DNA of 64,000 nucleotides from an uncultured archaeon (GTDB lineage Archaea; Halobacteriota; Archaeoglobi; Archaeoglobales; Archaeoglobaceae), in NCBI GenBank assembly GCA_964622075.1, contig CAZUMR010000062.1:6886-70885 (forward strand), written 5' to 3'. The position numbers and the translations under genes are program-made. A model generated the notes under the pieces. The model was not told the origin of the DNA. It did not search any database and worked only from the letters and a program-made list of their open reading frames with translations. Each line of letters opens with the position of its first letter. Positions within the stretch are counted from its first letter, which is position 1. Below, in pieces: positions 28 to 62,563 of the stretch.

Positions 28-921
28 CTATTTACCAAACCACACCTTTTCAACGAACTTTCTGCACCCTCTGTATCCAAGAGACCTTGCCAGTCTTGCA
101 GCTCTAACCTCATCTATCAGATGAGGAAACCTCTCTTTTTCAGATGGAAGAATTTCCTCCTTGCTCACAACAGTTATGTAAACGAGGGCCTGAGATGCAA
201 GCAACTCACAGTCAACATCAGAGTTTTCAAGCCCGGCTATCTCCCTTATGAAGTATTCTGTTAACTCATTTCCCGGATTTTTGACGTACCTTATTCCGGC
301 CTCTTCAGCAGCCTTATGGACAAGGTTTACGGACTTTACATCAACTTCTCTCAGAGAATCTTTCAGGTATATCTCCATTAGAAAGTGTATCTGTCCAGCC
401 TCTATGGCCATGTTCGTTTCTTCTATTGACGCTATCTTTTCAGCTCTCATTCTGTCTCTCAGAACAAACCTTTCGGCATCAGCTCTTGCAAACTTAATCG
501 TTTTCTCAACAACAAGATCAAAATCTCTGGCCATAAATGCTTCCTGATATTCAAGCAGGGCTCCAGTTGCCTTTTTCTCAGCTTCCAGAACTTTTCTTAC
601 AGTTCTATTTTTTATATACTCATCATAAGTGTTCTCTTCCACTGCTCTGTGAACACCCTCTATTATCTGCAGGTAAGGTTCCACTGCAAGAATTTCAACC
701 TCATCTTTAATTTTTAAGAGTGTTTCAGCTAACTTTTCGGTGTATTTTGGGAATGGTGTATCCATCCACAGTGTGTATTCTCCCGCACTCATCTCCCCGC
801 TGAGCAGTTTTTTTAGCTCCTCAGTTTCCGGCTCCTCAAGCACGAAAAACTTATGTCCTTTAACGGCATTTGCCAGCAAGGGAAGCAGTTCAACTCTGTG
901 AGATGTATATATTATAAGCAT
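28..921 (-). CDS. hypothetical protein, 297 aa, no family recognised
   Basis: Uninterrupted ORF with ATG start and normal local composition. It is divergent from the cytochrome gene. No motif I can name. Confidence 0.5.
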   Translation of the reverse strand: MLIIYTSHRVELLPLLANAVKGHKFFVLEEPETEELKKLLSGEMSAGEYTLWMDTPFPKYTEKLAETLLKIKDEVEILAVEPYLQIIEGVHRAVEENTYDEYIKNRTVRKVLEAEKKATGALLEYQEAFMARDFDLVVEKTIKFARADAERFVLRDRMRAEKIASIEETNMAIEAGQIHFLMEIYLKDSLREVDVKSVNLVHKAAEEAGIRYVKNPGNELTEYFIREIAGLENSDVDCELLASQALVYITVVSKEEILPSEKERFPHLIDEVRAARLARSLGYRGCRKFVEKVWFGK

Positions 922-1090
922 GCATGTGGTCTTGCATAACAGTTAATTACTTTTTAGGTGCTGATGGTGGTGATAATACATATCATGCATCATCGTTTTT
1001 AGGAAATCTTAAATAACCAGTTATTACAAACTCGAAACTGAAAACAACTGAATCGTAAGTAGATAGTTGAAATCTGAAGTGGTGAGGGAA

Positions 1091-1903
1091 ATGAATAGTG
1101 GGAAACTTGTTTTACTGGCAATAGCACTCGTAGCTGTCGGTACTGCTGTAATGCCGCAGACGGTCTCGCTCTTCGCCGGACAGCACTGGTGGTACAACAT
1201 AAGCGGTACCGGTAACCAGGTCCCCTGCCAGAAGTGCCACGCCGACGTGTTCGAGGAGCTCGCCCTGAGCAACTTCCACACCCACTGGAGCGCGAGTGGT
1301 TGGAACGCGTCAGTTCCCGGACAGGCGGACCAGTACGACTGCGCTGCATGTCACAGGAGCAACCTCTCGATACAGTACGCGCTCGTCAACGGGAGCGTGA
1401 CTAACTACCAGCCCGGTAAGCAGGCCCACGCCGCGAGCGTCGTGGCGTGCATGCTCTGCCACCAGATCAACGCCTCCTCCGCGACCTGGGCTCCCGGTTA
1501 CTACGCTGGAGGTTTCAACATAACGTCGTTCGTCAAGGCGGGTATAATTTCACCTTCGCCTTACAACTACTCCAACGCCACTAACAACGGCCTTCAGGCG
1601 GCGCACAACGCCTTCATAGCGATGGCCATAAAGAACAAGACGTTCCCCGACTCGACCGAGGCCTGCGTGGCCTGCCACACCCACGTGGCCGTTAAGATAG
1701 TTTGGCACCACAAGAGGAGCTTGGAGTTCGACGTCAACATAACCAACCCGGTCACGCTCTCTAACGGAGTGCACAACTGGACGATATCCGACTGGTCCGT
1801 TAACGGAACGGCTACTGCCATAAGCTGGGGTAACACGACTGGTACCGGTAACACGAGCTACTGGAGCGGATGGCCGGGCAACGTTAGCAACATATACTCC
1901 TAA
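1091..1903 (+). CDS. secreted tetraheme c-type cytochrome, heavily sequon-decorated (candidate extracellular cytochrome filament subunit)
   Basis: Four CXXCH motifs (CQKCH, CAACH, CMLCH, CVACH). N-terminal hydrophobic segment KLVLLAIALVAVGTAV. 15 N-X-S/T sequons. GGTGAGG Shine-Dalgarno 5 nt before the ATG at 1091 (the ORF track starts at 1067). Confidence 0.85.
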   Translation: MNSGKLVLLAIALVAVGTAVMPQTVSLFAGQHWWYNISGTGNQVPCQKCHADVFEELALSNFHTHWSASGWNASVPGQADQYDCAACHRSNLSIQYALVNGSVTNYQPGKQAHAASVVACMLCHQINASSATWAPGYYAGGFNITSFVKAGIISPSPYNYSNATNNGLQAAHNAFIAMAIKNKTFPDSTEACVACHTHVAVKIVWHHKRSLEFDVNITNPVTLSNGVHNWTISDWSVNGTATAISWGNTTGTGNTSYWSGWPGNVSNIYS

Positions 1904-2003
1904 AAATTTAATTTTATTTTTTGTTTTTTAATTATTCGTTATCCATTCTCCGATCACACAACATCGCGCTAAGTTTATCATCCATCTGCCCACTTTTTGG
2001 GTT

Positions 2004-5038: not shown

Positions 5039-5112
5039 GCGCCGGTGGTGTAGTCTGGCTAACACAGGGGCCTGCCACGCCCCCGCCCCGGGTTCAAATC
5101 CCGGCCGGCGCA
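5039..5112 (+). tRNA. tRNA-Gly (anticodon GCC)
   Basis: Manual cloverleaf: acceptor gcgccgg/ccggcgc, anticodon stem ggggc/gcccc, loop ctGCCac, T arm ccggg-ttcaaat-cccgg. No encoded CCA. Confidence 0.9.
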
Positions 5113-5413: not shown

Positions 5414-5597
5414 TTTTTAATATTTTGCTTTTATTATTGCTATTTTTCGACTTTCGAATCCGAATTTTGGTTTTTTATTTAAACTGCTTAATATTTACCT
5501 GTATATTTCTGAACATAGTAGTGATCATAATTCGATAAAATCCAAATCGTTAAATACCCTTGGAAATTAACCTTTGACTGGTTCTGGAGATGATATA

Positions 5598-7106
5598 ATG
5601 AAGTCGAAAATGAATAAGAGGGCCGTATCTCCAGTAGTGGGGATGGTTCTCGTTCTTGCAATTATAGCGGGAGTTATGAGTATCATTCAAACCCAGTACA
5701 TTCCGAGGTGGGATTATCAAAAAGAGGCTCAAAGTTACAATACATTACTTTCTGAAATGAAAGAAATACCTGCCATGCTCACGACTTCCCAGTCTTCAAC
5801 TGCCGTTAAAATAGATGCCGGAACGAGCTATCCGCAGTATCCCTTCCTCGTCAACCTGAAATCGAGTTATGGAGTAATCAAAATAGTGCCTGAGAACGTG
5901 AGCGTTAGCTATACGGTCTTTGGTAAAAAGGTTAAGGAAAATTACACATCTTCTGCCATAATTGTGAGACCATACTACCTGTATCTACCTCAGGTCAATG
6001 TAACTTACGAGCACGGTGCTGTGATTGTTTACGGAAAGAACTATGCTAAACCTGTTGTGCTGAGTCAGGTAGCTTTTTCAAAGGATTCCATATCTCTTCC
6101 GGTTGTGGAATCAAACAACTTCTCTGCTGCTGCAAGAACTTTCGTACTGCACTTTTACCTGATCAGCAGGGGTGAGGGCAATCAGGTTTCCAACCTCACT
6201 ATAACATTTCAGACAAAGTATCCAAAGCTGTGGAGCGACATTCTGTCGAGGATATATGGTAGTGGTGTGAGTGTATCTGGGGATACTGTTACTCTCCACA
6301 TATCTGGGCCAGTAACTCTTTCGATATCGGCATGGAACACTTACGCTCAGCCTGTTGGAACAGCTGTTAGCAGGAGGTACGTTTCAGCTGTGATAGCTGT
6401 TCCGGAGAAAGTATTCCTGAACCCCGGACAGAGAAGTGAAGTAAACGTTCAGCTGCTTGACAGATACGGAAATCCAATAACAAACGCAAGTGTGGAAGTG
6501 ACTGTTGACAATGCCAGCGTCTGCAAGTTATTCGTCAACAACAGCCTGTCTGATAGGGGCAGGTTTACAACTTCTATCGATGGTGTGGCAAACATATTCG
6601 TTGAGGCCTTAAACGCTGGAAAAACCCAGATTAAGATAACAACGCCGGTGCCTGCCATCAACGGTGGCAGGAATACAACAGTGATTACTGTAAATGTAAC
6701 AAAGTTACAGACATCTCCTGAGTCCTACACAATTGACATAGTCCATGCAAATGCCTCTCTGAGCGGGTACTACTATGTTGGACGTTGTTGCTGTTGGAGA
6801 AGTTACTACGATGTCTATACGTACGACATCCTAGTCAAATTGATGCTCAATGGAAAGGAACAGAGCAACACTCCGGTAAACTTCTACTTTGTGGACTCGA
6901 ACGGCAACTACCTGTTCATGGACACATCATTCACGAACTCTACAGGTTATGCGAGGTTGATAACGACTGTCGGCGTTTCTACAGAACAGCCCTCTAATAC
7001 CGCCTACTATATAACCCCTCAGAGACTCCTCAGCGAAAAGCCGTACAAGGTAATAGTTACTGCCGGAGCGGCAACGAACAGTACATTGATAAATTACATA
7101 TCCTAA
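5598..7106 (+). CDS. large archaeal type IV pilin-like surface protein with Ig-like domains
   Basis: Class III signal-peptide-like N-terminus (NKRAVSPVVGMVLVLAIIAGVM). Ig-like repeat (VNVQLLDRYGNPITNASVEVTV). Many sequons. ATG at 5598 preferred over the TTG at 5574. Confidence 0.65.
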   Translation: MKSKMNKRAVSPVVGMVLVLAIIAGVMSIIQTQYIPRWDYQKEAQSYNTLLSEMKEIPAMLTTSQSSTAVKIDAGTSYPQYPFLVNLKSSYGVIKIVPENVSVSYTVFGKKVKENYTSSAIIVRPYYLYLPQVNVTYEHGAVIVYGKNYAKPVVLSQVAFSKDSISLPVVESNNFSAAARTFVLHFYLISRGEGNQVSNLTITFQTKYPKLWSDILSRIYGSGVSVSGDTVTLHISGPVTLSISAWNTYAQPVGTAVSRRYVSAVIAVPEKVFLNPGQRSEVNVQLLDRYGNPITNASVEVTVDNASVCKLFVNNSLSDRGRFTTSIDGVANIFVEALNAGKTQIKITTPVPAINGGRNTTVITVNVTKLQTSPESYTIDIVHANASLSGYYYVGRCCCWRSYYDVYTYDILVKLMLNGKEQSNTPVNFYFVDSNGNYLFMDTSFTNSTGYARLITTVGVSTEQPSNTAYYITPQRLLSEKPYKVIVTAGAATNSTLINYIS

Positions 7107-55093: not shown

Positions 55094-55744
55094 GTGGTAG
55101 GTAGAAAGTTTAGGAAAGACAGAAAGGGTGCCATCGGTATAGAGACACTGATAGTCTTCATAGCGATGGTGCTGGTAGCAGCAGTGAGTGCAGCAGTTCT
55201 CATACAGACTGTCGGTTACCTCCAGCAGAAGGCAATGGCAACAGGTAGGGAGACTACAAAGGAAGTTTCAAGCGGTATTAAAGTTGACCAGGTTCTCGGT
55301 TATTATGATTCTACTCAGGGTGGTATATCCAAGATTGCTGTAGTCTGTGAACCCAACACTGGAGGTCAGCCAATTGACCTCAGCAAGGTTACTGTTACGA
55401 TAAGCAACGGTGAAACAGCTGCAGTCCTGCACTACAGCAGCACGTACTTTGCCACACTTACCAACGGTGGAGACATATTTACATCTGCTGCATTCCCGAC
55501 TACAAGCACGAACTTCGGTATAATTGTGCTGGAGGACTCTGATAAGTCTATCACTGCTACAACACCAACCATGAACTCTGGAGACAGGGTAGCTCTTGCT
55601 ATAAACACAACCACAGTGTTTGGCGCTGCAATACCTGTTAACACCCACGTATATGGACAGGTCAAGCCTGAATTCGGCGCTCCAGGTATAATTGACTTCA
55701 CAACCCCGCCAACGTACACAGTGAATGTTGTGACACTGCAGTAA
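55094..55744 (+). CDS. arlB: archaellin
   Basis: Class III signal peptide and conserved N-terminus KGAIGIETLIVFIAMVLVAAVSAAVLI. Confidence 0.9.
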   Translation: MVGRKFRKDRKGAIGIETLIVFIAMVLVAAVSAAVLIQTVGYLQQKAMATGRETTKEVSSGIKVDQVLGYYDSTQGGISKIAVVCEPNTGGQPIDLSKVTVTISNGETAAVLHYSSTYFATLTNGGDIFTSAAFPTTSTNFGIIVLEDSDKSITATTPTMNSGDRVALAINTTTVFGAAIPVNTHVYGQVKPEFGAPGIIDFTTPPTYTVNVVTLQ

Positions 55745-55756
55745 AGCAAATAACTC

Positions 55757-55780
55757 TTTTCAAATTTTTTGAGTTTTTTT
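55757..55780 (+). terminator. oligo-T tracts after arlB (likely partial terminator)
   Basis: T4, T6 (55765-55770) and T7 (55774-55780) directly after the arlB stop. An AT-rich TATA-like sequence follows. Confidence 0.45.
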
Positions 55781-55819
55781 AAACTTTATTTATTTAAATT
55801 TTTGCAGGGGGTGACAGAG

Positions 55820-56335
55820 ATGGGACTCAAGTTGTTCAGGAAGAAGAACGTGGACGACGAGGAAGAAATCGAGGAGGAAGAGCTTGAAGAGGAAGAGGAA
55901 GAATTTGAAGAAGATGAGGAGGAAGAACAGGAAACACCCTCAGGCAGCTCTGGAGGATCAGGAGACAGTGAAACAATTGAGAAAATCATGGAGAGACTTA
56001 ATGAAATAGACAACAGGCTACCAAGGATCGATATATCAATAAGTAATTTAAAGAAAGAAATAGACTCGCTAAAACAGGATCTGCAGAAAATGGACGACTC
56101 CCTCAAGGACATGATGGCATTGTATGAGGTTGTATCTTCTCAGATAAACCCGTTCGTTGGCTCATCCAAGGTTACCGCCCTTAGCCTTCAGAGGCTTGAC
56201 AACATGGAGAAAGAGCTCAGGGAACTTGAACAGCTTGTAAACGATGTCGTGGATGATCTGAGGATGCTGTTCAGAAAGACTGTGAATGTGAAGGATATAG
56301 TTAACCAGGTCCTCTACGAGGAGGTGGTACTGTGA
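55820..56335 (+). CDS. arlC: archaellum accessory protein ArlC (FlaC)
   Basis: An acidic tract followed by the FlaC-type coiled coil (...MALYEVVSSQINPFV). GGGGGTGA Shine-Dalgarno before the ATG at 55820. Confidence 0.75.
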   Translation: MGLKLFRKKNVDDEEEIEEEELEEEEEEFEEDEEEEQETPSGSSGGSGDSETIEKIMERLNEIDNRLPRIDISISNLKKEIDSLKQDLQKMDDSLKDMMALYEVVSSQINPFVGSSKVTALSLQRLDNMEKELRELEQLVNDVVDDLRMLFRKTVNVKDIVNQVLYEEVVL

Positions 56336-57492
56336 TCTCTGACAAGGCTGATAACAGGAACATAATATCTCTGGAAGATCTGAAGGAAGAGACGGACACT
56401 GCTGGAGAAGAGAAGGTTACAAAGGACGTTACAAAGAAGTCAGAGGAAGAAAAGAAATCTCCGTATCTTTCGGATGAGGAAATCAAGGAGTACCTTGAGA
56501 GATACAGAGGTAGAATACCTTCTGTAATACTGAGGGACATATACGAGATGCTGAAGGGCAGGAGGATAACTGAGAGACACATAGACAGGATAGTTGAAAA
56601 GGTAGAGGCCATGCTGAATGCTGATAACCAGCTTAGAAAAATTGATGATATATATAAAAAGCTTGAAAGCCTTGAGAAACTGCTCAGGAGTGATGTTTCC
56701 AAGGTTGTGAATGTTGAGGCTGTTAAGACTGAAACTCCTGAGCAGATGTCAGATGAAAAATCAGGGATGGCTGAAGAGAGCGTTGGAGTTGCAGGAGAGG
56801 GTGGTGTTGAGAGTGCTGAGAGAGAAAGCGTTGGGAGAGAAGTGGAGGTTGGAGAAAGTGCAAGGGGCGTTAGGGCTGAAATCGAGAGACCTGAGGAGAA
56901 ATTTGCAGGTGTTGAAGAACCTCAAAAAATACCCGGAGGTGAGGTTATGCAGGGTGATGTTATGCATTCAGGTTTAGGTCGAGCTCAGACTCACGCTCAT
57001 CCTGTTAGAGAAGCACAGGATGTGTATCGTGAACATCGCTATCACGAGCACAATTACCGTTACCCGGCGAGGAGAGATAGATGGGTGGAGAGTGCTTATG
57101 CTTATTACCACGAGGCATGCATTGAGGAACCAAGGCTGTCAAGAATACCTACCGATGCCAAGGGAATAATGCTGCTGCTCAAGTGGATAGAGTTTCTGAT
57201 GGAGAGAGTTGGCTACGATGGGCTTGAGGATGTCCTGAACTACTATGTTGACATAAACTGGATCAGCGAGGACGTTCTTATGACTGTGCTCAGGTATGCC
57301 AGGGGAATCAAACTCTACCACGACAACTCTGACTGGAGGCCTGTAGGCTACATGAATGTTCAGGATCACCTGATGAGCCTTCTGTACATAGAGGCCCTCA
57401 GGACCGGCAGGTTTGACAGGAATCTGATTATGGAGGTGGAAAAAGACCTTTACAGGATGAAGAAGGAGGTAGCGGAGCTCCATGGGGTTTAG
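56332..57492 (+). CDS. arlD: archaellum accessory protein ArlD/E (FlaD/E)
   Basis: C-terminal FlaD/E domain (LLKWIEFLMERVGYDGLEDVLNYYVDINWISEDV). GTGA overlap with arlC. Confidence 0.75.
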   Translation: MISDKADNRNIISLEDLKEETDTAGEEKVTKDVTKKSEEEKKSPYLSDEEIKEYLERYRGRIPSVILRDIYEMLKGRRITERHIDRIVEKVEAMLNADNQLRKIDDIYKKLESLEKLLRSDVSKVVNVEAVKTETPEQMSDEKSGMAEESVGVAGEGGVESAERESVGREVEVGESARGVRAEIERPEEKFAGVEEPQKIPGGEVMQGDVMHSGLGRAQTHAHPVREAQDVYREHRYHEHNYRYPARRDRWVESAYAYYHEACIEEPRLSRIPTDAKGIMLLLKWIEFLMERVGYDGLEDVLNYYVDINWISEDVLMTVLRYARGIKLYHDNSDWRPVGYMNVQDHLMSLLYIEALRTGRFDRNLIMEVEKDLYRMKKEVAELHGV

Positions 57493-57919
57493 CGTAACTG
57501 CTGCATTTGCCCTGCTGATGATTGCATGTCTTGTAGCATTTGGAGCAGTGATGGCTGTGCTTGACACGAACCTCAAAGCGATAAATGCTGCAGAAAAACA
57601 GCAGACGAGACTGAAGCTTGAAAAGGCAAATACAGATTTTCAAATAGTATCTATAAATGCAACAAATACAACGATATCAACTTACGATTTGCAGGTGGTA
57701 ATTTACAACGATGGCTCAACAACCCTGAAAACAGGGGATTTCTCTGTACTTGTTGACGGTGTGCTGGAGAACTTCACGTGCAATGTAAGCTACCTGTTCC
57801 CTCTAAAGAGTGCACTGATCTCCGTCACAAACTTGCCGGGGACTGTTGGATCTACTCACAGACTGGAGATAGTTTCGGGCAATGGGGTGGCAAAGTTTGC
57901 AGAGTACACCGTGAGCTAA
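57482..57919 (+). CDS. arlF: archaellum stator protein ArlF (FlaF)
   Basis: N-terminal TM helix plus a beta-sandwich-sized body. The position between arlD/E and arlG fits. Confidence 0.7.
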   Translation: MGFSVTAAFALLMIACLVAFGAVMAVLDTNLKAINAAEKQQTRLKLEKANTDFQIVSINATNTTISTYDLQVVIYNDGSTTLKTGDFSVLVDGVLENFTCNVSYLFPLKSALISVTNLPGTVGSTHRLEIVSGNGVAKFAEYTVS

Positions 57920-57992
57920 ATTTCAGCCAGTTCTCGGGCTAATGCACTCGTATTAGCGGAAGCTATCTTCACTGCCTCTGGAGGTGATGTGT

Positions 57993-58445
57993 ATGGGCTT
58001 TGGAGAATGTGCGGCTCACATAATCCTGTTCATAGCAGTGGTCATAGTAGCTTCCTCTCTCTCAGTGATGATGGCAACTACAGTTCAGAAGATATCCATG
58101 GGTATCGAGCAGCAGGGGAACAGGGTTCAAAAGCTGCTCACGACAGACTTCGAAATAATAAACGATCCTGCCAATATTCCGACAAAAACGATCGGTACAA
58201 GCACAGCTTACGTGTTTTATGTAAAGAATACCGGGACTGATTCGTTTCCCCTGACGAATCACACTATAACTGTAATGATCGATGGCAGCCTGATTTCCCC
58301 CTCGAACGTCACGACAACTCCTGCTCTACTCAAACCCGGACAGACGGGGGAGGTTGATGTTATAACGACTCTATCTGCGGGAGATCATACCATAAGGATT
58401 GTCCTCTACAACGGCGTCTCTGCAAGTCTTGAGTTTACCGTGTAA
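57993..58445 (+). CDS. arlG: archaellum stator protein ArlG (FlaG)
   Basis: N-terminal TM helix (AAHIILFIAVVIVASSL), with a size and position typical of FlaG. GGAGGTGA Shine-Dalgarno. Confidence 0.7.
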   Translation: MGFGECAAHIILFIAVVIVASSLSVMMATTVQKISMGIEQQGNRVQKLLTTDFEIINDPANIPTKTIGTSTAYVFYVKNTGTDSFPLTNHTITVMIDGSLISPSNVTTTPALLKPGQTGEVDVITTLSAGDHTIRIVLYNGVSASLEFTV

Positions 58446-58472
58446 CTAAATGACTGCTGAGAGGTGGTGACA

Positions 58473-59165
58473 ATGAGAGTGTTCTCTGTACAGATTCAGA
58501 ACGATGAGTTTCACAAGAAGCTTGGTGGTGGATTGCCACCGGGGACAATTGCCCTGATAAAGGGAGACCACGGTAGCGGCAAGTCTGTGATATGTCAGAG
58601 GATGGTTTACGGGATGCTGAACAACGGAGTTGAAATCAGCTACGTTTCAACCCAGCTCACAACGACAGATTTCGTCAAGCAGATGCTATCTCTTGGCTAT
58701 AACGTTGTTCACCACATAATAAAGAACAGGCTCGTATTCTTTCCCGTTTATCCGCTGATAAATGAGATAAAGGAAAGGAGCGATTACTCAAGGAGGCTGA
58801 TCTCTGCAAAGGCAATTTTTGAAAAGGATGTAATATTTATAGATAGTTTCAGCTCACTTGTAAAGTTTGATATAGATGAGAGAGCTGCTGTTGATCTGAT
58901 GGGTTTTTTCAAGAGAGTTGTTGCCACAGGCAAGGCCATAGTTCTTACCGCAGTTGAGGATGAACTTCCAAGACGTGTTCTGGAAGAAGTTGAATCCTGC
59001 TCATCTCTGTTAATAGAAACTGCTACGAAGAAAGTTGGTACCGATTTAAAGAATATCATGATGATTAAGAAGTATAATTTTGCAGTAAGTCAGTATTCCA
59101 AGCAGACAGCATTCAGAGTTGAGCCGAACATAGGGCTCGTTGTGGAGATTGCAGCTGTTGCGTGA
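58473..59165 (+). CDS. arlH: archaellum KaiC/RecA-like ATP-binding protein ArlH (FlaH)
   Basis: LGGGLPPGTIALIKGDHGSGKS Walker A. Confidence 0.85.
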   Translation: MRVFSVQIQNDEFHKKLGGGLPPGTIALIKGDHGSGKSVICQRMVYGMLNNGVEISYVSTQLTTTDFVKQMLSLGYNVVHHIIKNRLVFFPVYPLINEIKERSDYSRRLISAKAIFEKDVIFIDSFSSLVKFDIDERAAVDLMGFFKRVVATGKAIVLTAVEDELPRRVLEEVESCSSLLIETATKKVGTDLKNIMMIKKYNFAVSQYSKQTAFRVEPNIGLVVEIAAVA

Positions 59166-59208
59166 TAGCTGTTGCGATGCATGTGAAAAAGCAGGGAGGG
59201 GATGAAGT

Positions 59209-60858
59209 ATGCAGGTCGTGAAGTCTGATAGACTTGAGGATGCGTTAAAGAGAAATCCTCATCTGAAGGAGTACCTCAGCAGGTTCAAGAAGAAAGAGGG
59301 CACTATCCCCAACTTCGTCCCCTCCCTGTCAAGAGATATGAAATCTCTGCCGAGACCAAATCTAATCTATCCTGTTGGAGATCCCATTTTCATCCACATA
59401 TGGACGGACAGGGATGGTGACAAGCACTACATAGCGATAGAACCAAGGCTGGAGGAGAAGGACGAGGAAAAGTTCAACCTGATAATGGACAGAATGCTCG
59501 AATTCGCTCCCTACGAGAAGGTACCAAGCAATGATGAGGAAATGGAGAAGCTGATAGACAAGCTGTTTGACAAGGTAACAACGATAACAAAGAAGCCTCA
59601 GCCAGTGGTGAAGAAAAAAAAGTTCTCCTTTGGAACGAGCGTGGATAAGATACCGATAACGAGGGCCGAGGCAATAAAATTCAGGTACATGATAAAGAGA
59701 GAGGTCGTTGGAGTTGGGCCGTTAGAACCTCTTGTCAGAGATCCGTACATAGAGGATATTCACGTTATAGGGCCTCACAACACGCACATAGTTCACAAGA
59801 TCTTCGAGATGATGCCAACGAACATCGACTTCAAGGACGATTTGTACATGGCAGAATACCTCAAGAACCTTGGAGAAAGGATGGGCAGGCCTGTTAGCGA
59901 GAGAACACCTATCGTTGACGGTTCTCTACCGGATGGAAGCAGAATTAACATAATTTACAGCACCGACGTCTCTCTTAAGGGCCCGTCTTTCACGATCCGT
60001 AAGTTCACAGCTGTTCCGATAAGCATAACCCAGTTAATAAACTGGGGAACTCTCTCAGCTGAAGTAGCCGCTTACCTCTGGCTCTGCTTGGAATACGGAA
60101 TGAGCATATGGGTGAGCGGAGAGACTGCAAGCGGTAAGACAACAACTCTTAACGCAATGATTCCGTTCATAAAACCTCACTCCAAAATATATACGGCAGA
60201 GGACACTCCGGAAGTTCAGGTACCTCACCCTGTCTGGCAGCAGCTCAACACAAGAGAGAGGGGTGAAGTTGGCAAGGTCGATCTGTTCGATCTGCTAAAG
60301 GCAGCTCTGAGAAGCAGACCGGACTACATCATAGTCGGTGAGATTAGAGGTAAGGAAGGTTCAGTCGCTTTCCAGGCTATGCAAACAGGACACCCGGTTC
60401 TTGCTACCTTTCACGCCGGTAGCGTTAAGAAGCTAATTCAGAGACTTACCGGAGATCCTATTAACGTTCCGATAACTTTCGTTGACAACCTGAATGTCGC
60501 ACTGATACAGCAGGCTGTTTACAGAAAGGGACAGTTCCTCAGGAGATGTCTCGTTGTTGAGGAGATAGAAGGATACTACGAGGATATTGGTGGTGTGGTT
60601 ACAAGAACGGTTTTTGAGTGGGATTCTGTCACTGACAAGCACATTTTCAGAGGCCTCTACAACTCGTACATACTTGAAAACAAGATAGCCCAGACTGCTG
60701 GTTATGAGGATCCAAGGCAGATTTATGAAGAGATGATGCTCAGAGCGAGAATCCTTGAAAGAATGATCGAACTCAAGATTTTCGACTATTACGAGGTCGT
60801 GAAGGTGATCTGGAACTTCTACAAGAAGGGTATAGAGGGTTTACCGTTCAGGCTGTGA
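59209..60858 (+). CDS. arlI: archaellum motor ATPase ArlI (FlaI)
   Basis: Type II/IV secretion ATPase with Walker A SGETASGKTT, an Asp box and a His box. 549 aa. Confidence 0.95.
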   Translation: MQVVKSDRLEDALKRNPHLKEYLSRFKKKEGTIPNFVPSLSRDMKSLPRPNLIYPVGDPIFIHIWTDRDGDKHYIAIEPRLEEKDEEKFNLIMDRMLEFAPYEKVPSNDEEMEKLIDKLFDKVTTITKKPQPVVKKKKFSFGTSVDKIPITRAEAIKFRYMIKREVVGVGPLEPLVRDPYIEDIHVIGPHNTHIVHKIFEMMPTNIDFKDDLYMAEYLKNLGERMGRPVSERTPIVDGSLPDGSRINIIYSTDVSLKGPSFTIRKFTAVPISITQLINWGTLSAEVAAYLWLCLEYGMSIWVSGETASGKTTTLNAMIPFIKPHSKIYTAEDTPEVQVPHPVWQQLNTRERGEVGKVDLFDLLKAALRSRPDYIIVGEIRGKEGSVAFQAMQTGHPVLATFHAGSVKKLIQRLTGDPINVPITFVDNLNVALIQQAVYRKGQFLRRCLVVEEIEGYYEDIGGVVTRTVFEWDSVTDKHIFRGLYNSYILENKIAQTAGYEDPRQIYEEMMLRARILERMIELKIFDYYEVVKVIWNFYKKGIEGLPFRL

Positions 60859-60886
60859 GTTTGGATTTGGGGTTGAGGTGATCTAA

Positions 60887-62563
60887 ATGTTCGAGAGTTT
60901 GAGGCACTGCGGTGTTAAACCTGAAAACTATTTCAAGTTCATATTTGCTCCCCTTACAGGGGCAGCTCTTATCATTCTCTTACTCGTCATGCTCCTCTCA
61001 GCTCAGCTCTTCAAGTTACTTGGCCTTTTTGCCATACTGCTCTACTTTGTCCCTGTAATGCTCCTTCTGATCACAGTCCTCTATCCAAAGATAGTCGTTG
61101 GCAGAATGAGAAATCAGATAGACAACAACATTCACTTCTACATAACCCACATGGGAGCACTGTCAACCTCAGATATAGATAGAAAGGAAATGATGAAGAT
61201 AATTGCCAACAGAAAGGAGTACAAGGCTCTTGCTGAGGAAACGAGAAAGATATACCTGCTTATGGAGAAGTGGAACAGAAACCTTTCACAGGCCTGCAGG
61301 TTCGTTGCAAGGAGAACACCGAGTAAGATATTCTCTGAGTTCCTTGACAGAATGGCTCACGAACTTGACAGCGGTGAGGACTTCAAGGAGTTCATAAAGA
61401 GGGAGCAGAAAACAGTTATGAACGCATTTGCTACAAACTATCAGGGCAAGCTTTACAGCATAGACATATTCAAGGAAGTTTACACTTCAATAATTATCTC
61501 CCTGTCTTTCTTTGCTGCTTTTGCAATAATAATGCCATTCCTGACTGGAATCAGTGTGACCTTCATGTTTGATATAATACTGGTAATTTTCATAATAGTC
61601 GAACTTGGAGTTCTCGTTTACCTCAAATCGGTTGCACCTGATGACCCGGTATGGCAGACTTCTGGAGAACTTACGGCAGTTGACTGGAAACTCTACAAGT
61701 ACTTCTATGTGGCAATGGTTGCCTGTCTTGTGATATTTGCAGTCCTGCTGTTTGCAAACTACGTTTACAGGATAGTAAACATACCTGTGCCATTCATAGT
61801 TGCCCTGACAGTTACGCCTTTGCTAATTCCCGGATACATGTCCAGAAAGGAGGAAGCTGTGATCAGGAATAAGGACAAGAATGCTCCCTCCTTCATAATG
61901 AGCCTTGGCGCCTCAGCGTCTGCAAGAGGTGGAGACATTCTTGAATCTCTCAAGTTCCTAACCGCACACGACTTCGGATCACTTACAAAAGATGTCAGAA
62001 ACCTGTACAAGAGACTGAAAACGAGAATAAACAAAAAGAGGGCATGGGAAAAGTTCAGCATAGAAACGGGGAGCAATCTGATTTACAGATTTACCGACAT
62101 GTTCGTTGAGGCCATAGGGCTTGGTAGCGATCCCAAGGATGTCGCTGAAATAATAGCCGACAACTTTACAGTGATAAATACTCTGAGAGCAAGGAGGTCT
62201 CAAACAGCAAGCTCATTCATCGGTATAGCTTACGGAGTTATAATCGGTATAGCGTTCTCTCTCTACATATCGTTTGGAGTTGTCCAGTCAATGAATACCC
62301 TTTATTCCAAGCTCCACATCTCGAATTCCTTTGTTGGCGGAATACTGCATACTGTCCCAGCTTCAAATCTTGCAGTGCTTAATGCTGTTGTATTCTTTAT
62401 ACTGCTGATACACGCCATAATCTCTTCAATGGCGATAAAGGTGATGGACGGTGGGAGATTCATGAGTTCTCTCGTTCATCTTGTTGGTATGGTCTGGGTT
62501 GCGGCGATTGCCGGGTATGTATCGCACACAGTTATGTTGAACATGCTTGGCATTCACTTTTAA
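60887..62563 (+). CDS. arlJ: archaellum platform membrane protein ArlJ (FlaJ)
   Basis: 558-aa polytopic protein with two cytoplasmic T2SF-like domains, directly after arlI. Confidence 0.9.
   Translation: MFESLRHCGVKPENYFKFIFAPLTGAALIILLLVMLLSAQLFKLLGLFAILLYFVPVMLLLITVLYPKIVVGRMRNQIDNNIHFYITHMGALSTSDIDRKEMMKIIANRKEYKALAEETRKIYLLMEKWNRNLSQACRFVARRTPSKIFSEFLDRMAHELDSGEDFKEFIKREQKTVMNAFATNYQGKLYSIDIFKEVYTSIIISLSFFAAFAIIMPFLTGISVTFMFDIILVIFIIVELGVLVYLKSVAPDDPVWQTSGELTAVDWKLYKYFYVAMVACLVIFAVLLFANYVYRIVNIPVPFIVALTVTPLLIPGYMSRKEEAVIRNKDKNAPSFIMSLGASASARGGDILESLKFLTAHDFGSLTKDVRNLYKRLKTRINKKRAWEKFSIETGSNLIYRFTDMFVEAIGLGSDPKDVAEIIADNFTVINTLRARRSQTASSFIGIAYGVIIGIAFSLYISFGVVQSMNTLYSKLHISNSFVGGILHTVPASNLAVLNAVVFFILLIHAIISSMAIKVMDGGRFMSSLVHLVGMVWVAAIAGYVSHTVMLNMLGIHF

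What the first reader, a model, noticed from the sequence alone, without database searches (positions are those of the whole stretch)
1067..1903. Orphan sequon-rich tetraheme cytochrome with foreign-looking composition: candidate extracellular cytochrome-nanowire subunit
Seen in sequence: the ORF 1091-1903 has a hydrophobic signal-like N-terminus and exactly four CXXCH motifs (CQKCH, CAACH, CMLCH, CVACH). It also has at least nine further His residues that could serve as distal ligands, and 15 N-X-S/T sequons in about 270 aa, clustered toward the C-terminus. The DNA is visibly richer in GC and CpG (many NCG, NNC and NNG codons) than both flanks. It also differs from other presumably highly expressed genes in this window (glnA, arlB, hsp20). 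The shift begins and ends at the ORF borders.

Established knowledge: small glycosylated tetraheme cytochromes polymerise into extracellular conductive filaments in Pyrobaculum calidifontis and Archaeoglobus veneficus (cryo-EM work of Baquero et al. 2023).

Inference: this ORF belongs to that class, possibly the Archaeoglobus-type subunit itself. Its composition suggests lateral acquisition or an extreme expression bias. No cytochrome-maturation, secretion or oligosaccharyltransferase gene is adjacent.
Basis: partly seen in the sequence, partly recalled or inferred. Interest (0 to 1): 0.7.

Follow-up and report, generated by a model that had tools for sequence, protein, structure and literature searches.

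The report
Archaeal cytochrome nanowire subunit gene
This gene encodes a four-heme protein clearly related to the subunit of the electrically conductive surface filament solved in Archaeoglobus veneficus; it was inherited in place rather than imported, and its odd GC-rich DNA is most likely extreme codon tuning of a very abundantly made protein.

Summary
ORF 1091-1903 (270 aa) has four CXXCH motifs, 13 His and 15 N-X-S/T sequons (4.2 expected). Its GC3 is 0.76, against 0.48±0.04 for 58 other window ORFs.

The protein is a full-length homologue of AvECN, the A. veneficus extracellular cytochrome nanowire subunit (PDB 8E5G). The sequence E-value is 1e-63, and 8E5G is the only significant fold match. 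All heme motifs and all family-conserved non-motif histidines are retained. It is not AvECN itself (44-47% identity). It comes from an uncultured Archaeoglobaceae lineage.

Lateral acquisition is not supported:
- The gene sits in one conserved slot (297-aa ORF | cytochrome | DBI_PRT | HisA-like) in at least eight related contigs.
- Its promoter, 5'UTR and terminator are orthologous to theirs.
- Its synonymous sites have diverged as far as those of the flanking genes.
- The protein is far more conserved (80-93%) than its housekeeping neighbours (57-76%).

Part of the codon bias is shared by all orthologues: NNC, GGT and ATA. ATA and GGT are AT-ending choices that go against the GC trend. That points to selection for very high expression.

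An extra C/G and CpG enrichment at four-fold sites is unique to this lineage and only partly explained.

Verdict: a new member of a known family, of moderate interest.

The parts
1001..1017 (+). Archaeal promoter core: BRE-like AGGAAA followed by a TATA box, TTAAATAA at 1009-1016
   Evidence: GGAAAnnTTAAATA is conserved in all 8 syntenic loci aligned, while most of the surrounding intergenic sequence is not. It lies about 75-80 nt upstream of the ATG, which implies a 5'UTR of roughly 50 nt. Promoter function is inferred, not shown.
1065..1088 (+). Conserved 5'UTR segment ending in the Shine-Dalgarno sequence GGTGAGGG (1081-1088)
   Evidence: AGTTGAAATCTnAAGTGGTGAGG is shared by the window, L086, L008, L090 and L092, and is followed by the invariant ATGAAT (coordinates). 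This supports ATG 1091 as the start rather than TTG 1067.
1091..1903 (+). Coding sequence (270 codons plus stop) of an AvECN-family tetraheme c-type cytochrome
   Evidence: The PDB sequence match to 8e5g_A has E = 1.2e-63. The fold match to 8E5G has E = 1.3e-14. GC3 is 0.756 and Nc is 35.5.
1091..1177 (+). N-terminal export signal or hydrophobic helix (residues 1-29: MNSGK + LVLLAIALVAVGTAV + MPQTVSLFA). GC3 here is at the genome level (0.47).
   Evidence: The model predicts a helix at residues 3-28. P22, F28, G30, H32, W34 and Y35 are invariant in 111 homologues. The solved AvECN chain has only 220 of 262 residues modelled, which is consistent with removal or disorder of this part. The cleavage site itself was not determined.
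1226..1240 (+). Heme-binding motif 1, CQKCH (residues 46-50)
   Evidence: C46, K48, C49 and H50 are invariant. It aligns to AvECN C46-H50.
1340..1354 (+). Heme-binding motif 2, CAACH (residues 84-88)
   Evidence: The motif is invariant. It aligns to AvECN residues 81-85.
1448..1462 (+). Heme-binding motif 3, CMLCH (residues 120-124)
   Evidence: The motif is invariant. It aligns to AvECN residues 115-119.
1664..1678 (+). Heme-binding motif 4, CVACH (residues 192-196)
   Evidence: The motif is invariant or nearly so. It aligns to AvECN residues 185-189.
1691..1831 (+). C-terminal beta-sheet domain (residues 201-247) carrying the best-conserved sequons (N229, N238, with N248 just after)
   Evidence: The model has strands at 201-207, 210-222, 228-238 and 241-247, with pLDDT above 90. 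The N238 sequon is in the same column in 85% of homologues and N248 in 78%, and both are present in AvECN. The pentaheme paralogue P0024 has a nearly identical domain.
1907..1929 (+). Oligo-T transcription terminator, TTTAATTTTATTTTTTGTTTTTT
   Evidence: It lies directly after the stop codon. T-tracts are conserved at the same place in the syntenic loci (coordinates). Archaeal RNA polymerase terminates at oligo-T tracts (established knowledge). This makes the gene a monocistronic unit.

Best explanation
The gene encodes the precursor of an AvECN-type extracellular cytochrome nanowire subunit in an uncultured hydrothermal Archaeoglobaceae lineage.

Proposed mechanism, with shown and inferred steps marked:
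1. The gene is transcribed as a single unit from its own conserved BRE/TATA promoter to an oligo-T terminator. The sequence elements are shown; their function is inferred.
2. The protein is exported through its N-terminal hydrophobic signal (inferred).
3. Four c-type hemes are attached at the four CXXCH motifs by a maturation system encoded elsewhere (inferred).
4. It is probably N-glycosylated at many of its 15 sequons (inferred).
5. Subunits polymerise head to tail so that conserved non-motif histidines complete heme coordination, partly across subunit boundaries as in AvECN. This produces a continuous insulated heme chain that carries respiratory electrons to or from extracellular minerals or partner cells (inferred from homology).

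The gene was inherited vertically in a conserved chromosomal slot (shown). Its GC- and CpG-rich composition is a synonymous-site effect confined to the part encoding the mature protein (shown). The most likely cause is strong selection on codon usage in one of the most highly expressed genes of the cell, intensified in this lineage while the rest of the genome drifted toward AT (inferred).
For: Family membership.
- phmmer against the PDB finds only 8e5g_A, at E = 1.2e-63, covering residues 1-263.
- An AlphaFold2 model built from a 111-sequence alignment has pLDDT 85.2 and pTM 0.74. Its only significant Foldseek hit is 8E5G, at E = 1.3e-14 with TM 0.60/0.72.
- In that 111-sequence tetraheme alignment (110 homologues plus the window protein), His 32, 50, 88, 113, 124, 172 and 196 are 100% conserved, His 63 is 96% and His 207 is 95%. 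Each aligns to a His of AvECN.
- Published analyses of 8E5G describe bis-His hemes with axial His ligands supplied by adjacent protomers. Retention of every conserved His therefore argues for the same polymer.
- Sequon enrichment is family-wide: 10.9 observed against 3.1 expected.

Vertical inheritance.
- The order 297-aa ORF(-) | cytochrome | DBI_PRT | HisA-like is fully conserved in L004, L006 and L086. It is seen in part in L003, L005, L008, L090 and L092, which lack the upstream ORF and/or HisA-like, mostly at contig ends.
- Promoter, 5'UTR and terminator align with those loci.
- Identity at four-fold sites between the window and its relatives is 0.27-0.43 in the cytochrome and 0.21-0.51 in the flanks. 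It tracks the flanks among the relatives too.
- Synonymous identity shows no breakpoint along the gene.
- No flanking repeats and no adjacent tRNA were found.

Selection.
- The protein is 80-93% identical to its orthologues, while the housekeeping neighbours are 57-76% identical.
- Nc is the lowest in the window.
- C-ending codons are used in 68 of 70 two-fold pyrimidine-ending positions and G-ending codons in 22 of 23 two-fold purine-ending positions. Ile is ATA in 12 of 14 cases and Gly is GGT in 11 of 21, with GGC only twice.
- Nearly all orthologues show the same NNC, GGT and ATA shift relative to their own flanks, in genomes whose GC3 ranges from 0.24 to 0.54. The exceptions are NNC in L008 and ATA in L006.
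- Compared with the sister locus L086, flanking genes here have lower GC3 (0.39-0.50 against 0.50-0.66), but the cytochrome has higher GC3 (0.76 against 0.64). Of the synonymous third-position differences, 44 are AT in L086 and GC here, and 16 are the reverse.
- Codons 1-30 stay at genome-level GC3, as expected if the 5' end is kept weakly structured for translation initiation.
- In a principal-component analysis of window codon usage built without this gene, it projects beyond glnA at the same extreme.
- MmcX, a homologue in a Methanocellales archaeon, was one of the two most highly expressed genes in situ (PMC11176372).
- A paralogue pair from the same metagenome has ordinary GC3 of 0.48-0.50.
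Against: - No filament, heme or glycan has been observed for this protein. Polymerisation rests on 44-47% identity to one solved filament.
- The expression explanation is incomplete. At four-fold sites only the window gene is shifted (A .06, C .41, G .32, T .20, against host values of .24.19.23.33). Its orthologues are not shifted there.
- The other presumably well-expressed window genes (glnA, hsp20, archaellin) prefer A or T at four-fold sites and avoid NCG codons. The per-codon correlation between their bias and the cytochrome's bias is weak: r = 0.18, p = 0.17.
- AvECN, the one proven filament subunit, has no raised GC3 or NNC in A. veneficus (0.44 against 0.53). It shows only the ATA and GGT shifts.
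- No ribosomal-protein or other gold-standard highly expressed gene set of this genome was available.
- Near-identical orthologues also occur in a second context (BioY | cytochrome | second tetraheme gene). A mosaic pentaheme version occupies the same slot in another genome. The locus is therefore not immune to recombination.
Confidence: 0.62

Rival explanations
1. Orthologous replacement. The coding region, or the whole small cassette, was recently replaced by an allele from an unsampled, more GC-rich Archaeoglobi relative. The composition would then be a donor signature that has not yet been ameliorated.
For: - ΔGC3 of +0.28 relative to the flanks (+0.28 to +0.32 by the alternative flank sets) is far outside anything seen in the 131 other homologue genes examined. 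The mean difference over all 134 genes scored is +0.013.
- The four-fold C/G and CpG enrichment is not shared by the orthologues or by glnA, hsp20 and the archaellin.
- The family does recombine. A mosaic pentaheme gene sits in the same slot in L116. In A. veneficus the C-terminus of the tandem paralogue has been converted to match AvECN.
- Close orthologues are found in two different contexts.
- A relative with gene GC3 0.71 in GC3 0.62 flanks exists (L089).
Against: - Promoter, 5'UTR and terminator are collinear with and homologous to those of syntenic relatives, right up to the ATG and the stop codon.
- Synonymous identity shows no discontinuity along the gene.
- The nearest proteins (93%) are the syntenic ones (L003, L086), not the GC-richer L089 (83-84%).
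- Gly is GGT (52%) rather than GGC (10%) and Ile is ATA (86%) rather than ATC. That is not what a GC3 0.75 donor would be expected to give.
- The sister locus L086 already shows the same positional GC3 profile in weaker form.
- No donor-like sequence turned up in two collection scans.
Confidence: 0.12
2. The protein is an AvECN homologue that does not polymerise. It would act as a monomeric or oligomeric cell-surface or pseudoperiplasmic tetraheme electron carrier, possibly kept on the membrane by an uncleaved N-terminal helix.
For: - The family has many paralogues per genome with 3 to 6 or more hemes, and they cannot all be filament subunits.
- The N-terminal hydrophobic segment and the following PxTVSLFAGQHxWY motif are unusually conserved for a disposable signal peptide.
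- The window has no partner cytochrome next to the gene, unlike A. veneficus.
Against: - Homology to the solved filament subunit is full length, with all conserved His retained.
- AvECN hemes take axial His ligands from adjacent protomers. A monomer of the same design would leave hemes under-coordinated.
- The very strong purifying selection and codon bias fit an abundant structural polymer better than a minor carrier.
Confidence: 0.2
3. GC-biased gene conversion. Frequent recombination between this gene and its paralogues raised GC at silent sites, independently of expression.
For: - Concerted evolution of the C-terminal domain between tetra- and pentaheme paralogues is evident.
- The excess is in both C and G and includes CpG.
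Against: - The paralogues found in the same metagenome and in relatives have ordinary GC3.
- The enrichment is not concentrated in the converted C-terminal part. GC3 is 0.67-0.90 throughout codons 31-270.
- Conversion bias does not explain the preference for ATA and GGT.
Confidence: 0.05

Closest known systems
AvECN (F2KMU8 / AEA46122), the extracellular cytochrome nanowire subunit of Archaeoglobus veneficus, PDB 8E5G (Baquero et al. 2023, Cell 186:2853)
   Same: - The two proteins are homologous over their full length (E = 1.2e-63) and share the predicted fold (TM 0.60/0.72).
- Both have four CXXCH motifs in the same order and with nearly the same spacing.
- His 32/63/113/172/207 here align to AvECN His 32/64/108/165/200.
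- Both have the N-terminal hydrophobic segment followed by the SLFxGQHxWYNISGTGN motif.
- Sequons at N36, N238 and N248 are shared, and both have the C-terminal beta domain.
   Different: - Identity is only 44-47%.
- This protein has 15 sequons against 9.
- The gene here is solitary in a different chromosomal context. AvECN is followed by a tandem pentaheme paralogue and a 196-aa five-CXXCH cytochrome.
- AvECN has ordinary or low GC3 (0.44 against 0.53 for its neighbours), while this gene has 0.76 against 0.48.
- Filament formation is demonstrated only for AvECN.
MmcX, a tetraheme cytochrome of 'Ca. Serpentinarchaeum' Met12 (Methanocellales), with the wider clade in ANME-1, ANME-2, Methanoperedenaceae, Syntrophoarchaeales and Archaeoglobales (PMC11176372)
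   Same: It belongs to the same protein clade as AvECN according to that paper. It has four hemes and a signal peptide, and its in-situ expression is exceptionally high. Homologues from ANME-1, Syntrophoarchaeum and Methanoxibalbensis were also recovered here.
   Different: It is a distant member from a mesophilic, hyperalkaline setting. Its proposed role there is electron uptake. No codon-usage anomaly was reported for it, and I did not compare it directly with the window protein.
Other cytochrome nanowires: PcECN (Pyrobaculum calidifontis, 8E5F) and OmcS, OmcE and OmcZ (Geobacter)
   Same: The expected working principle is the same: a polymer of small multiheme c-type cytochromes with a continuous chain of bis-His hemes.
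   Different: No sequence or fold similarity was detected. None of them appears in the PDB sequence search at E ≤ 10 or in the shown top 50 Foldseek PDB matches, where 8E5G is the only hit with E ≤ 0.001. The resemblance is analogy, not family membership.
Pfam multiheme models: MtrC/MtrF domains II/IV (PF22113), cytochrome c7 (PF14522) and c3 (PF14537)
   Same: There are weak matches over the first three heme motifs.
   Different: The scores sit at or below the curated cut-offs: 30.2 against 30, 24.3 against 24.8 and 16.8 against 25. These reflect generic CXXCH spacing, not family membership. Among the Pfam-A models scanned, none gave more than a threshold-level match.

Membership tests
AvECN-type archaeal extracellular cytochrome nanowire subunits | Full-length sequence homology to the solved subunit (8E5G chain A) | tested here: met
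   phmmer gives E = 1.2e-63 and 218 bits, with query residues 1-263 aligned to chain residues 1-256. It is the only PDB hit at E ≤ 10.
AvECN-type archaeal extracellular cytochrome nanowire subunits | Four c-type heme-binding CXXCH motifs in conserved order and spacing | tested here: met
   The motifs start at residues 46, 84, 120 and 192, against 46, 81, 115 and 185 in AvECN. They are invariant in the 111-sequence alignment.
AvECN-type archaeal extracellular cytochrome nanowire subunits | Conserved non-motif histidines that can act as distal (bis-His) ligands, including those donated across protomer interfaces | tested here: met
   H32, H113 and H172 are 100% conserved, H63 is 96% and H207 is 95%. 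All are present here and in AvECN. Which of them ligate which heme could not be read without the 8E5G coordinates.
AvECN-type archaeal extracellular cytochrome nanowire subunits | Same three-dimensional fold | tested here: met
   The AF2 model has pLDDT 85.2. Foldseek gives 8E5G at E = 1.3e-14, probability 1.00 and TM 0.60/0.72, and the next hit has E > 1. An earlier 32-sequence model was too poor to use, at pLDDT 53.5.
AvECN-type archaeal extracellular cytochrome nanowire subunits | N-terminal export signal | tested here: inconclusive
   A hydrophobic helix is predicted at residues 3-28, preceded by a Lys. No signal-peptide predictor was available. The cleavage site is undetermined and the segment is unusually conserved.
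AvECN-type archaeal extracellular cytochrome nanowire subunits | Polymerisation into an extracellular filament with a continuous heme chain | not testable with these tools
   No multimer or heme-aware modelling was available, and there is no experiment. The claim is inferred from homology only.
AvECN-type archaeal extracellular cytochrome nanowire subunits | Covalent heme attachment and N-glycosylation of the mature protein | not testable with these tools
   Sequon enrichment is real: 15 against 4.2 here, and 10.9 against 3.1 across the family. Occupancy cannot be known from sequence. I could not verify from the held papers that AvECN itself is glycosylated.
PcECN-type (Pyrobaculum) nanowire subunits; OmcS, OmcE and OmcZ | Sequence or fold similarity to 8E5F, 6EF8, 7TFS or 7LQ5 | tested here: not met
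   None appears in the PDB sequence search at E ≤ 10 or in the shown top 50 Foldseek matches, where only 8E5G reaches E ≤ 0.001.
Horizontally acquired genomic island | Insertion that breaks synteny, with foreign flanks, att-like repeats or an adjacent tRNA or integrase, and donor-like codon usage | tested here: not met
   Synteny is conserved wholly or in part in 8 related loci. Promoter and terminator are orthologous. There are no flanking repeats, and the nearest tRNA is 3.1 kb away beyond four genes, three of which (DBI_PRT, HisA-like, YlbF) were matched in related loci. The ATA, GGT and AGG choices are host-like.

The most novel reading that the evidence does not exclude
The GC and CpG recoding of the mature-protein part of the gene may not be ordinary translational selection. 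It runs against the direction of genome drift, and neither the orthologues nor the other well-expressed window genes share it. Two readings remain open:
1. A cryptic orthologous replacement from an unsampled GC-rich Archaeoglobi lineage.
2. A distinct selective regime on the mRNA of a super-abundant secreted heme protein in a hyperthermophile. Candidates are transcript stability at high temperature, avoidance of internal oligo-T termination or TATA-like sites, and pacing of translation for export and heme attachment.

The gene has 1.2 T4 runs per kb, against 5.6 in other window genes.
Probability: 0.2. Interest if true: 0.5.

Novelty: new member of a known kind. Interest (0 to 1): 0.36.

Why it matters
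- It extends the AvECN nanowire family to a clade of uncultured vent Archaeoglobaceae. In that clade the gene is solitary, syntenic and more strongly conserved than neighbouring housekeeping enzymes, and it is the most codon-biased gene in 64 kb.
- Together these features predict that cytochrome filaments are a major, constitutive surface structure of these organisms. Extracellular electron transfer would then be central to their lifestyle.
- The prediction can be tested directly with existing metatranscriptomes, with proteomics, or with cryo-EM of enrichments.
- The locus is also a clean natural example of a strong compositional anomaly arising in place. It is a caution against reading GC3 outliers as horizontal transfer.
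- The mosaic pentaheme gene in the same slot of a related genome illustrates modular recombination among multiheme cytochromes.

Tried and rejected
- **First structure prediction.** The model from a 32-sequence alignment was unusable (pLDDT 53.5). I replaced it with a 111-sequence alignment.
- **The primary paper.** Baquero et al. 2023 (PMC10330847) is not held. Its details come from citing papers and from my own recollection of the abstract. I could not confirm that AvECN is glycosylated.
- **Pfam.** It gave only threshold-level generic multiheme hits.
- **Family-wide GC3 elevation.** I tested and rejected this as a family trait. The mean ΔGC3 over 134 genes is +0.013, and AvECN itself is not elevated.
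- **Recent transfer from the closest relatives.** Rejected, because four-fold sites are saturated and track the flanks.
- **A recombination breakpoint at codon 30.** Rejected, because synonymous identity shows no step there and the sister locus L086 has the same profile.
- **Simple exaggeration of the bias seen in glnA, archaellin and hsp20.** Only partly upheld. Two-fold codons, GGT and CTC agree with it, while four-fold codons do not (r = 0.18, not significant).
- **A GC-rich donor.** Two collection scans found none.
- **Antisense ORFs inside 999-1854.** These are by-products of high GC3 and not genes.
- **Assembly chimera.** Judged unlikely, because the same gene and flanks occur in two assemblies. 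Those assemblies may derive from the same sample.
- **The A. veneficus locus.** It was not returned by the genome scan, so I reached it by a second protein search and a contig look-up.
Full report
**1. The observation**

The ORF runs from ATG 1091 to the stop at 1903 and encodes 270 aa.
- It has exactly four CXXCH motifs, at residues 46, 84, 120 and 192. These use all eight cysteines.
- It has 13 histidines.
- It has 15 N-X-S/T sequons. Shuffles of the same composition give 4.2 ± 1.8, and none of 5000 reach 15.

The TTG at 1067 is not the start. A GGTGAGGG Shine-Dalgarno sequence lies at 1081-1088, and ATGAAT is invariant in orthologous loci.

The compositional anomaly is real and large.
- GC3 is 0.756, against 0.477 ± 0.041 for 58 other window ORFs. 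The maximum among those is glnA at 0.595, so z = 6.8.
- CpG observed/expected is 1.10, against 0.71 for the window.
- The effective number of codons is 35.5, against 47.1 ± 2.9. The next lowest is glnA at 40.8.
- The intergenic flanks are AT-rich, with GC 0.34 upstream and 0.31 downstream.
- One refinement: codons 1-30 have genome-level GC3 (0.47), and the shift applies to codons 31-270 (0.80).

**2. What the protein is**

A sequence search of all PDB chains returns one hit, 8e5g_A. This is the A. veneficus cytochrome filament subunit. The match has E = 1.2e-63 and spans the full length.

Pfam gives only threshold-level generic multiheme matches.

A first AlphaFold2 model from 32 sequences was too poor to use (pLDDT 53.5). 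A second, from a 111-sequence tetraheme alignment, reached pLDDT 85.2 and pTM 0.74. Its only significant Foldseek match in the PDB is 8E5G, at E = 1.3e-14 with TM 0.60/0.72. Every other hit has E > 1. Neither the Pyrobaculum filament nor OmcS, OmcE or OmcZ appears.

In the 111-sequence alignment, seven histidines are invariant: 32, 50, 88, 113, 124, 172 and 196. His 63 is 96% conserved and His 207 is 95%. All of them align to histidines of AvECN.

Published computational work on 8E5G describes bis-His hemes. It says fragments of neighbouring subunits are needed to supply axial His ligands. It uses F2KMU8 as the example of a filament held by more than one inter-protomer coordination bond. Retention of every conserved non-motif His is therefore the best sequence-level indicator available that this protein polymerises in the same way. 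I could not assign ligands to hemes without coordinates.

The protein is 44-47% identical to AvECN. It is a family member, not the same protein.

**3. Family and source**

The exact protein occurs on two metagenome contigs.

Homologues number in the hundreds. They come from Archaeoglobaceae MAGs, ANME-1/Methanophagales, Syntrophoarchaeum, Methanoxibalbensis and others, and there are often several per genome.

Of 195 full-length members collected here, 128 have four CXXCH motifs, 49 have five and 18 have six. Sequon enrichment is family-wide, at 10.9 against 3.1 expected.

This distribution is already in the literature.
- Reviews state that AvECN homologues are widespread.
- My recollection of the Baquero et al. 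abstract is that it names Methanoperedenaceae, Syntrophoarchaeales and Borgs. That paper is not held.
- A Methanocellales homologue, MmcX, was placed in a clade spanning ANME-1, ANME-2, ANME-2d, Syntrophoarchaeales and Archaeoglobales. It was one of the two most highly expressed genes in situ.

**4. Imported or inherited?**

The gene occupies a conserved slot. The order is a 297-aa ORF on the minus strand, then the cytochrome, a DBI_PRT gene and a HisA-like gene.
- That order recurs wholly or in part in L003, L004, L005, L006, L008, L086, L090 and L092.
- In L086 collinearity extends over eight genes.
- The upstream intergenic region aligns across these loci. It contains a fully conserved GGAAAnnTTAAATA element, which looks like a BRE plus TATA box, and a conserved 5'UTR.
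- The downstream T-tract terminator is also conserved.

Four-fold synonymous sites are essentially saturated between the window and its relatives.
- Identity there is 0.27-0.43 in the cytochrome and 0.21-0.51 in the flanks.
- Among the relatives, synonymous identity of the cytochrome tracks that of DBI_PRT.
- There is no step in synonymous identity along the gene.
- No flanking repeats were found. The nearest tRNA is 3.1 kb away, beyond four further genes, three of which were matched in related loci.

At the protein level the cytochrome is 80-93% identical to these orthologues. The neighbouring enzymes are 57-76% identical.

The picture is vertical inheritance with very strong purifying selection. 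It is not a recent insertion.

**5. What the composition means**

The bias is not a plain GC shift.
- C-ending codons are used in 68 of 70 two-fold pyrimidine-ending positions.
- G-ending codons are used in 22 of 23 two-fold purine-ending positions.
- Ile is ATA in 12 of 14 cases.
- Gly is GGT in 11 of 21 cases, with GGC only twice.
- Arg is AGG.

Nearly all orthologues show the same NNC, GGT and ATA shifts relative to their own flanks. The exceptions are NNC in L008 and ATA in L006. This holds in genomes whose flank GC3 ranges from 0.24 to 0.54.

Against the sister locus L086, flanking genes in the window have lower GC3 (0.39-0.50 against 0.50-0.66). The cytochrome has higher GC3 (0.76 against 0.64). 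Of the synonymous third-position differences, 44 are AT in L086 and GC here, and 16 are the reverse.

L086 shows the same positional GC3 profile in weaker form. That includes the low-GC first 30 codons.

In a principal-component analysis of codon usage built without the cytochrome, the gene projects to the extreme of the first axis, just beyond glnA.

A probable paralogue pair from the same metagenome has ordinary GC3 of 0.48-0.50.

These results favour selection on synonymous sites of a very highly expressed gene. That fits the MmcX expression data.

The explanation is incomplete in four respects.
- The C/G and CpG enrichment at four-fold sites is found only in the window gene.
- glnA, hsp20 and the archaellin prefer A or T at those sites. 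The per-codon correlation with their bias is weak (r = 0.18).
- AvECN shows only the ATA and GGT component.
- Across 134 family genes the mean ΔGC3 is only +0.013.

An orthologous replacement from an unsampled GC-rich relative cannot be excluded. Neither can a different kind of selection on the mRNA. I give each a low probability.

**6. 'Orphan' status**

The window contains no other ORF with two or more CXXCH motifs. No Ccm or AglB-like gene was found among the 42 window genes with Pfam annotation, either scanned here or taken from precomputed contig hits.

In A. veneficus the AvECN gene lies in a different context. It is followed by a pentaheme paralogue and a 196-aa cytochrome with five CXXCH motifs.

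In other Archaeoglobaceae, 84%-identical orthologues lie between BioY and a second, different tetraheme gene.

The solitary arrangement is therefore a feature of this sub-clade and not of the family.

**7. Verdict**

Lateral acquisition is disfavoured.

The most likely function is an exported, heme-loaded and probably glycosylated subunit that polymerises into a conductive surface filament. That rests on homology.

The gene is a new member of a known kind. The in-place synonymous recoding and the exceptional conservation are the only unusual aspects. They make a testable prediction of very high expression.

Noticed in passing
L116:7001-7918 (GCA_054023235.1, protein P0024), compared with window 1091-1903: In a related genome a 305-aa pentaheme gene sits directly upstream of DBI_PRT. 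Its 5' part is 79% and its 3' part 83% nucleotide-identical to the window gene, and the last ~80 aa are almost identical. The middle carries a pentaheme-type insertion. It looks like a recombinant between tetra- and pentaheme paralogues at the orthologous locus. The upstream neighbour there is an ATPase rather than the 297-aa ORF, and the glnA-HerA-Cas4 block is adjacent, which indicates a rearrangement.
   Followed up: partly
L079:10001-12451 (A. veneficus CP002588): AvECN is followed by a pentaheme paralogue (P0123). Its C-terminal ~75 residues are nearly identical to AvECN, although overall identity is 52%. This indicates gene conversion between tandem paralogues. Next comes a 196-aa protein with a signal peptide and five CXXCH motifs, which is a candidate electron donor to the filament.
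   Followed up: partly
window 5574-7106 (+): A 510-aa DUF7289 protein has an N-terminus (…KRAVSPVVGMVLVLAIIAG…) that looks like an archaeal class III (type IV pilin-like) signal peptide. It is syntenic in L086 at 75-77% identity and lies 3.7 kb downstream of the cytochrome. In the Met12 study the two most highly expressed genes were the cytochrome homologue and an archaeal pilin. No link was tested here.
   Followed up: no
L099:492-2476 (Ga0256914_1010183, same metagenome as the window's JGI contig): This contig carries a triheme family member (54% identical, with an N-terminal MPQTVSLFAGQHWWYN motif as in the window protein). It is immediately followed by a 434-aa cytochrome with nine CXXCH motifs. 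Both have ordinary GC3 (0.50 and 0.48). They are probably paralogues in the same organism.
   Followed up: partly
window 1196-1216 and 1832-1852: There is an internal 21-nt direct repeat with 81% identity. It encodes two copies of a sequon motif, NISGTGN (residues 36-42) and NTTGTGN (residues 248-254). Both sequons are among the better-conserved ones in the family and both are present in AvECN.
   Followed up: partly
L081:6977-7858 and L082:6967-7878: In genomes where the 84%-identical orthologue lies next to BioY, the next gene encodes a 293-303-aa protein. It has a non-heme N-terminal domain and four C-terminal CXXCH motifs, ending in NEACIGCHTN, which is related to the family motif. No Pfam match is on record for it.
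   Followed up: no
window 55094-62563: An archaellum operon is present: archaellin (55094-55744), Arch_fla_DE (56332-57492), ArlI-like T2SSE ATPase (59209-60858) and ArlJ-like T2SSF (60887-62563). The archaellin has ordinary GC3 (0.447) but raised NNC and NNG use in two-fold codons.
   Followed up: partly
window 28-921 (-): A 297-aa ORF is transcribed divergently from the cytochrome. It is conserved in synteny at 60-74% identity in six of the related loci (L004, L006, L008, L086, L090, L092), yet it has no Pfam match. Its function is unknown and there is no evidence that it is linked to the cytochrome.
   Followed up: partly
window 5039-5112 (+): A tRNA-Gly(GCC) gene is present. This tRNA reads GGC and, by wobble, GGU. 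GGU is the Gly codon strongly preferred by the cytochrome gene and its orthologues.
   Followed up: no
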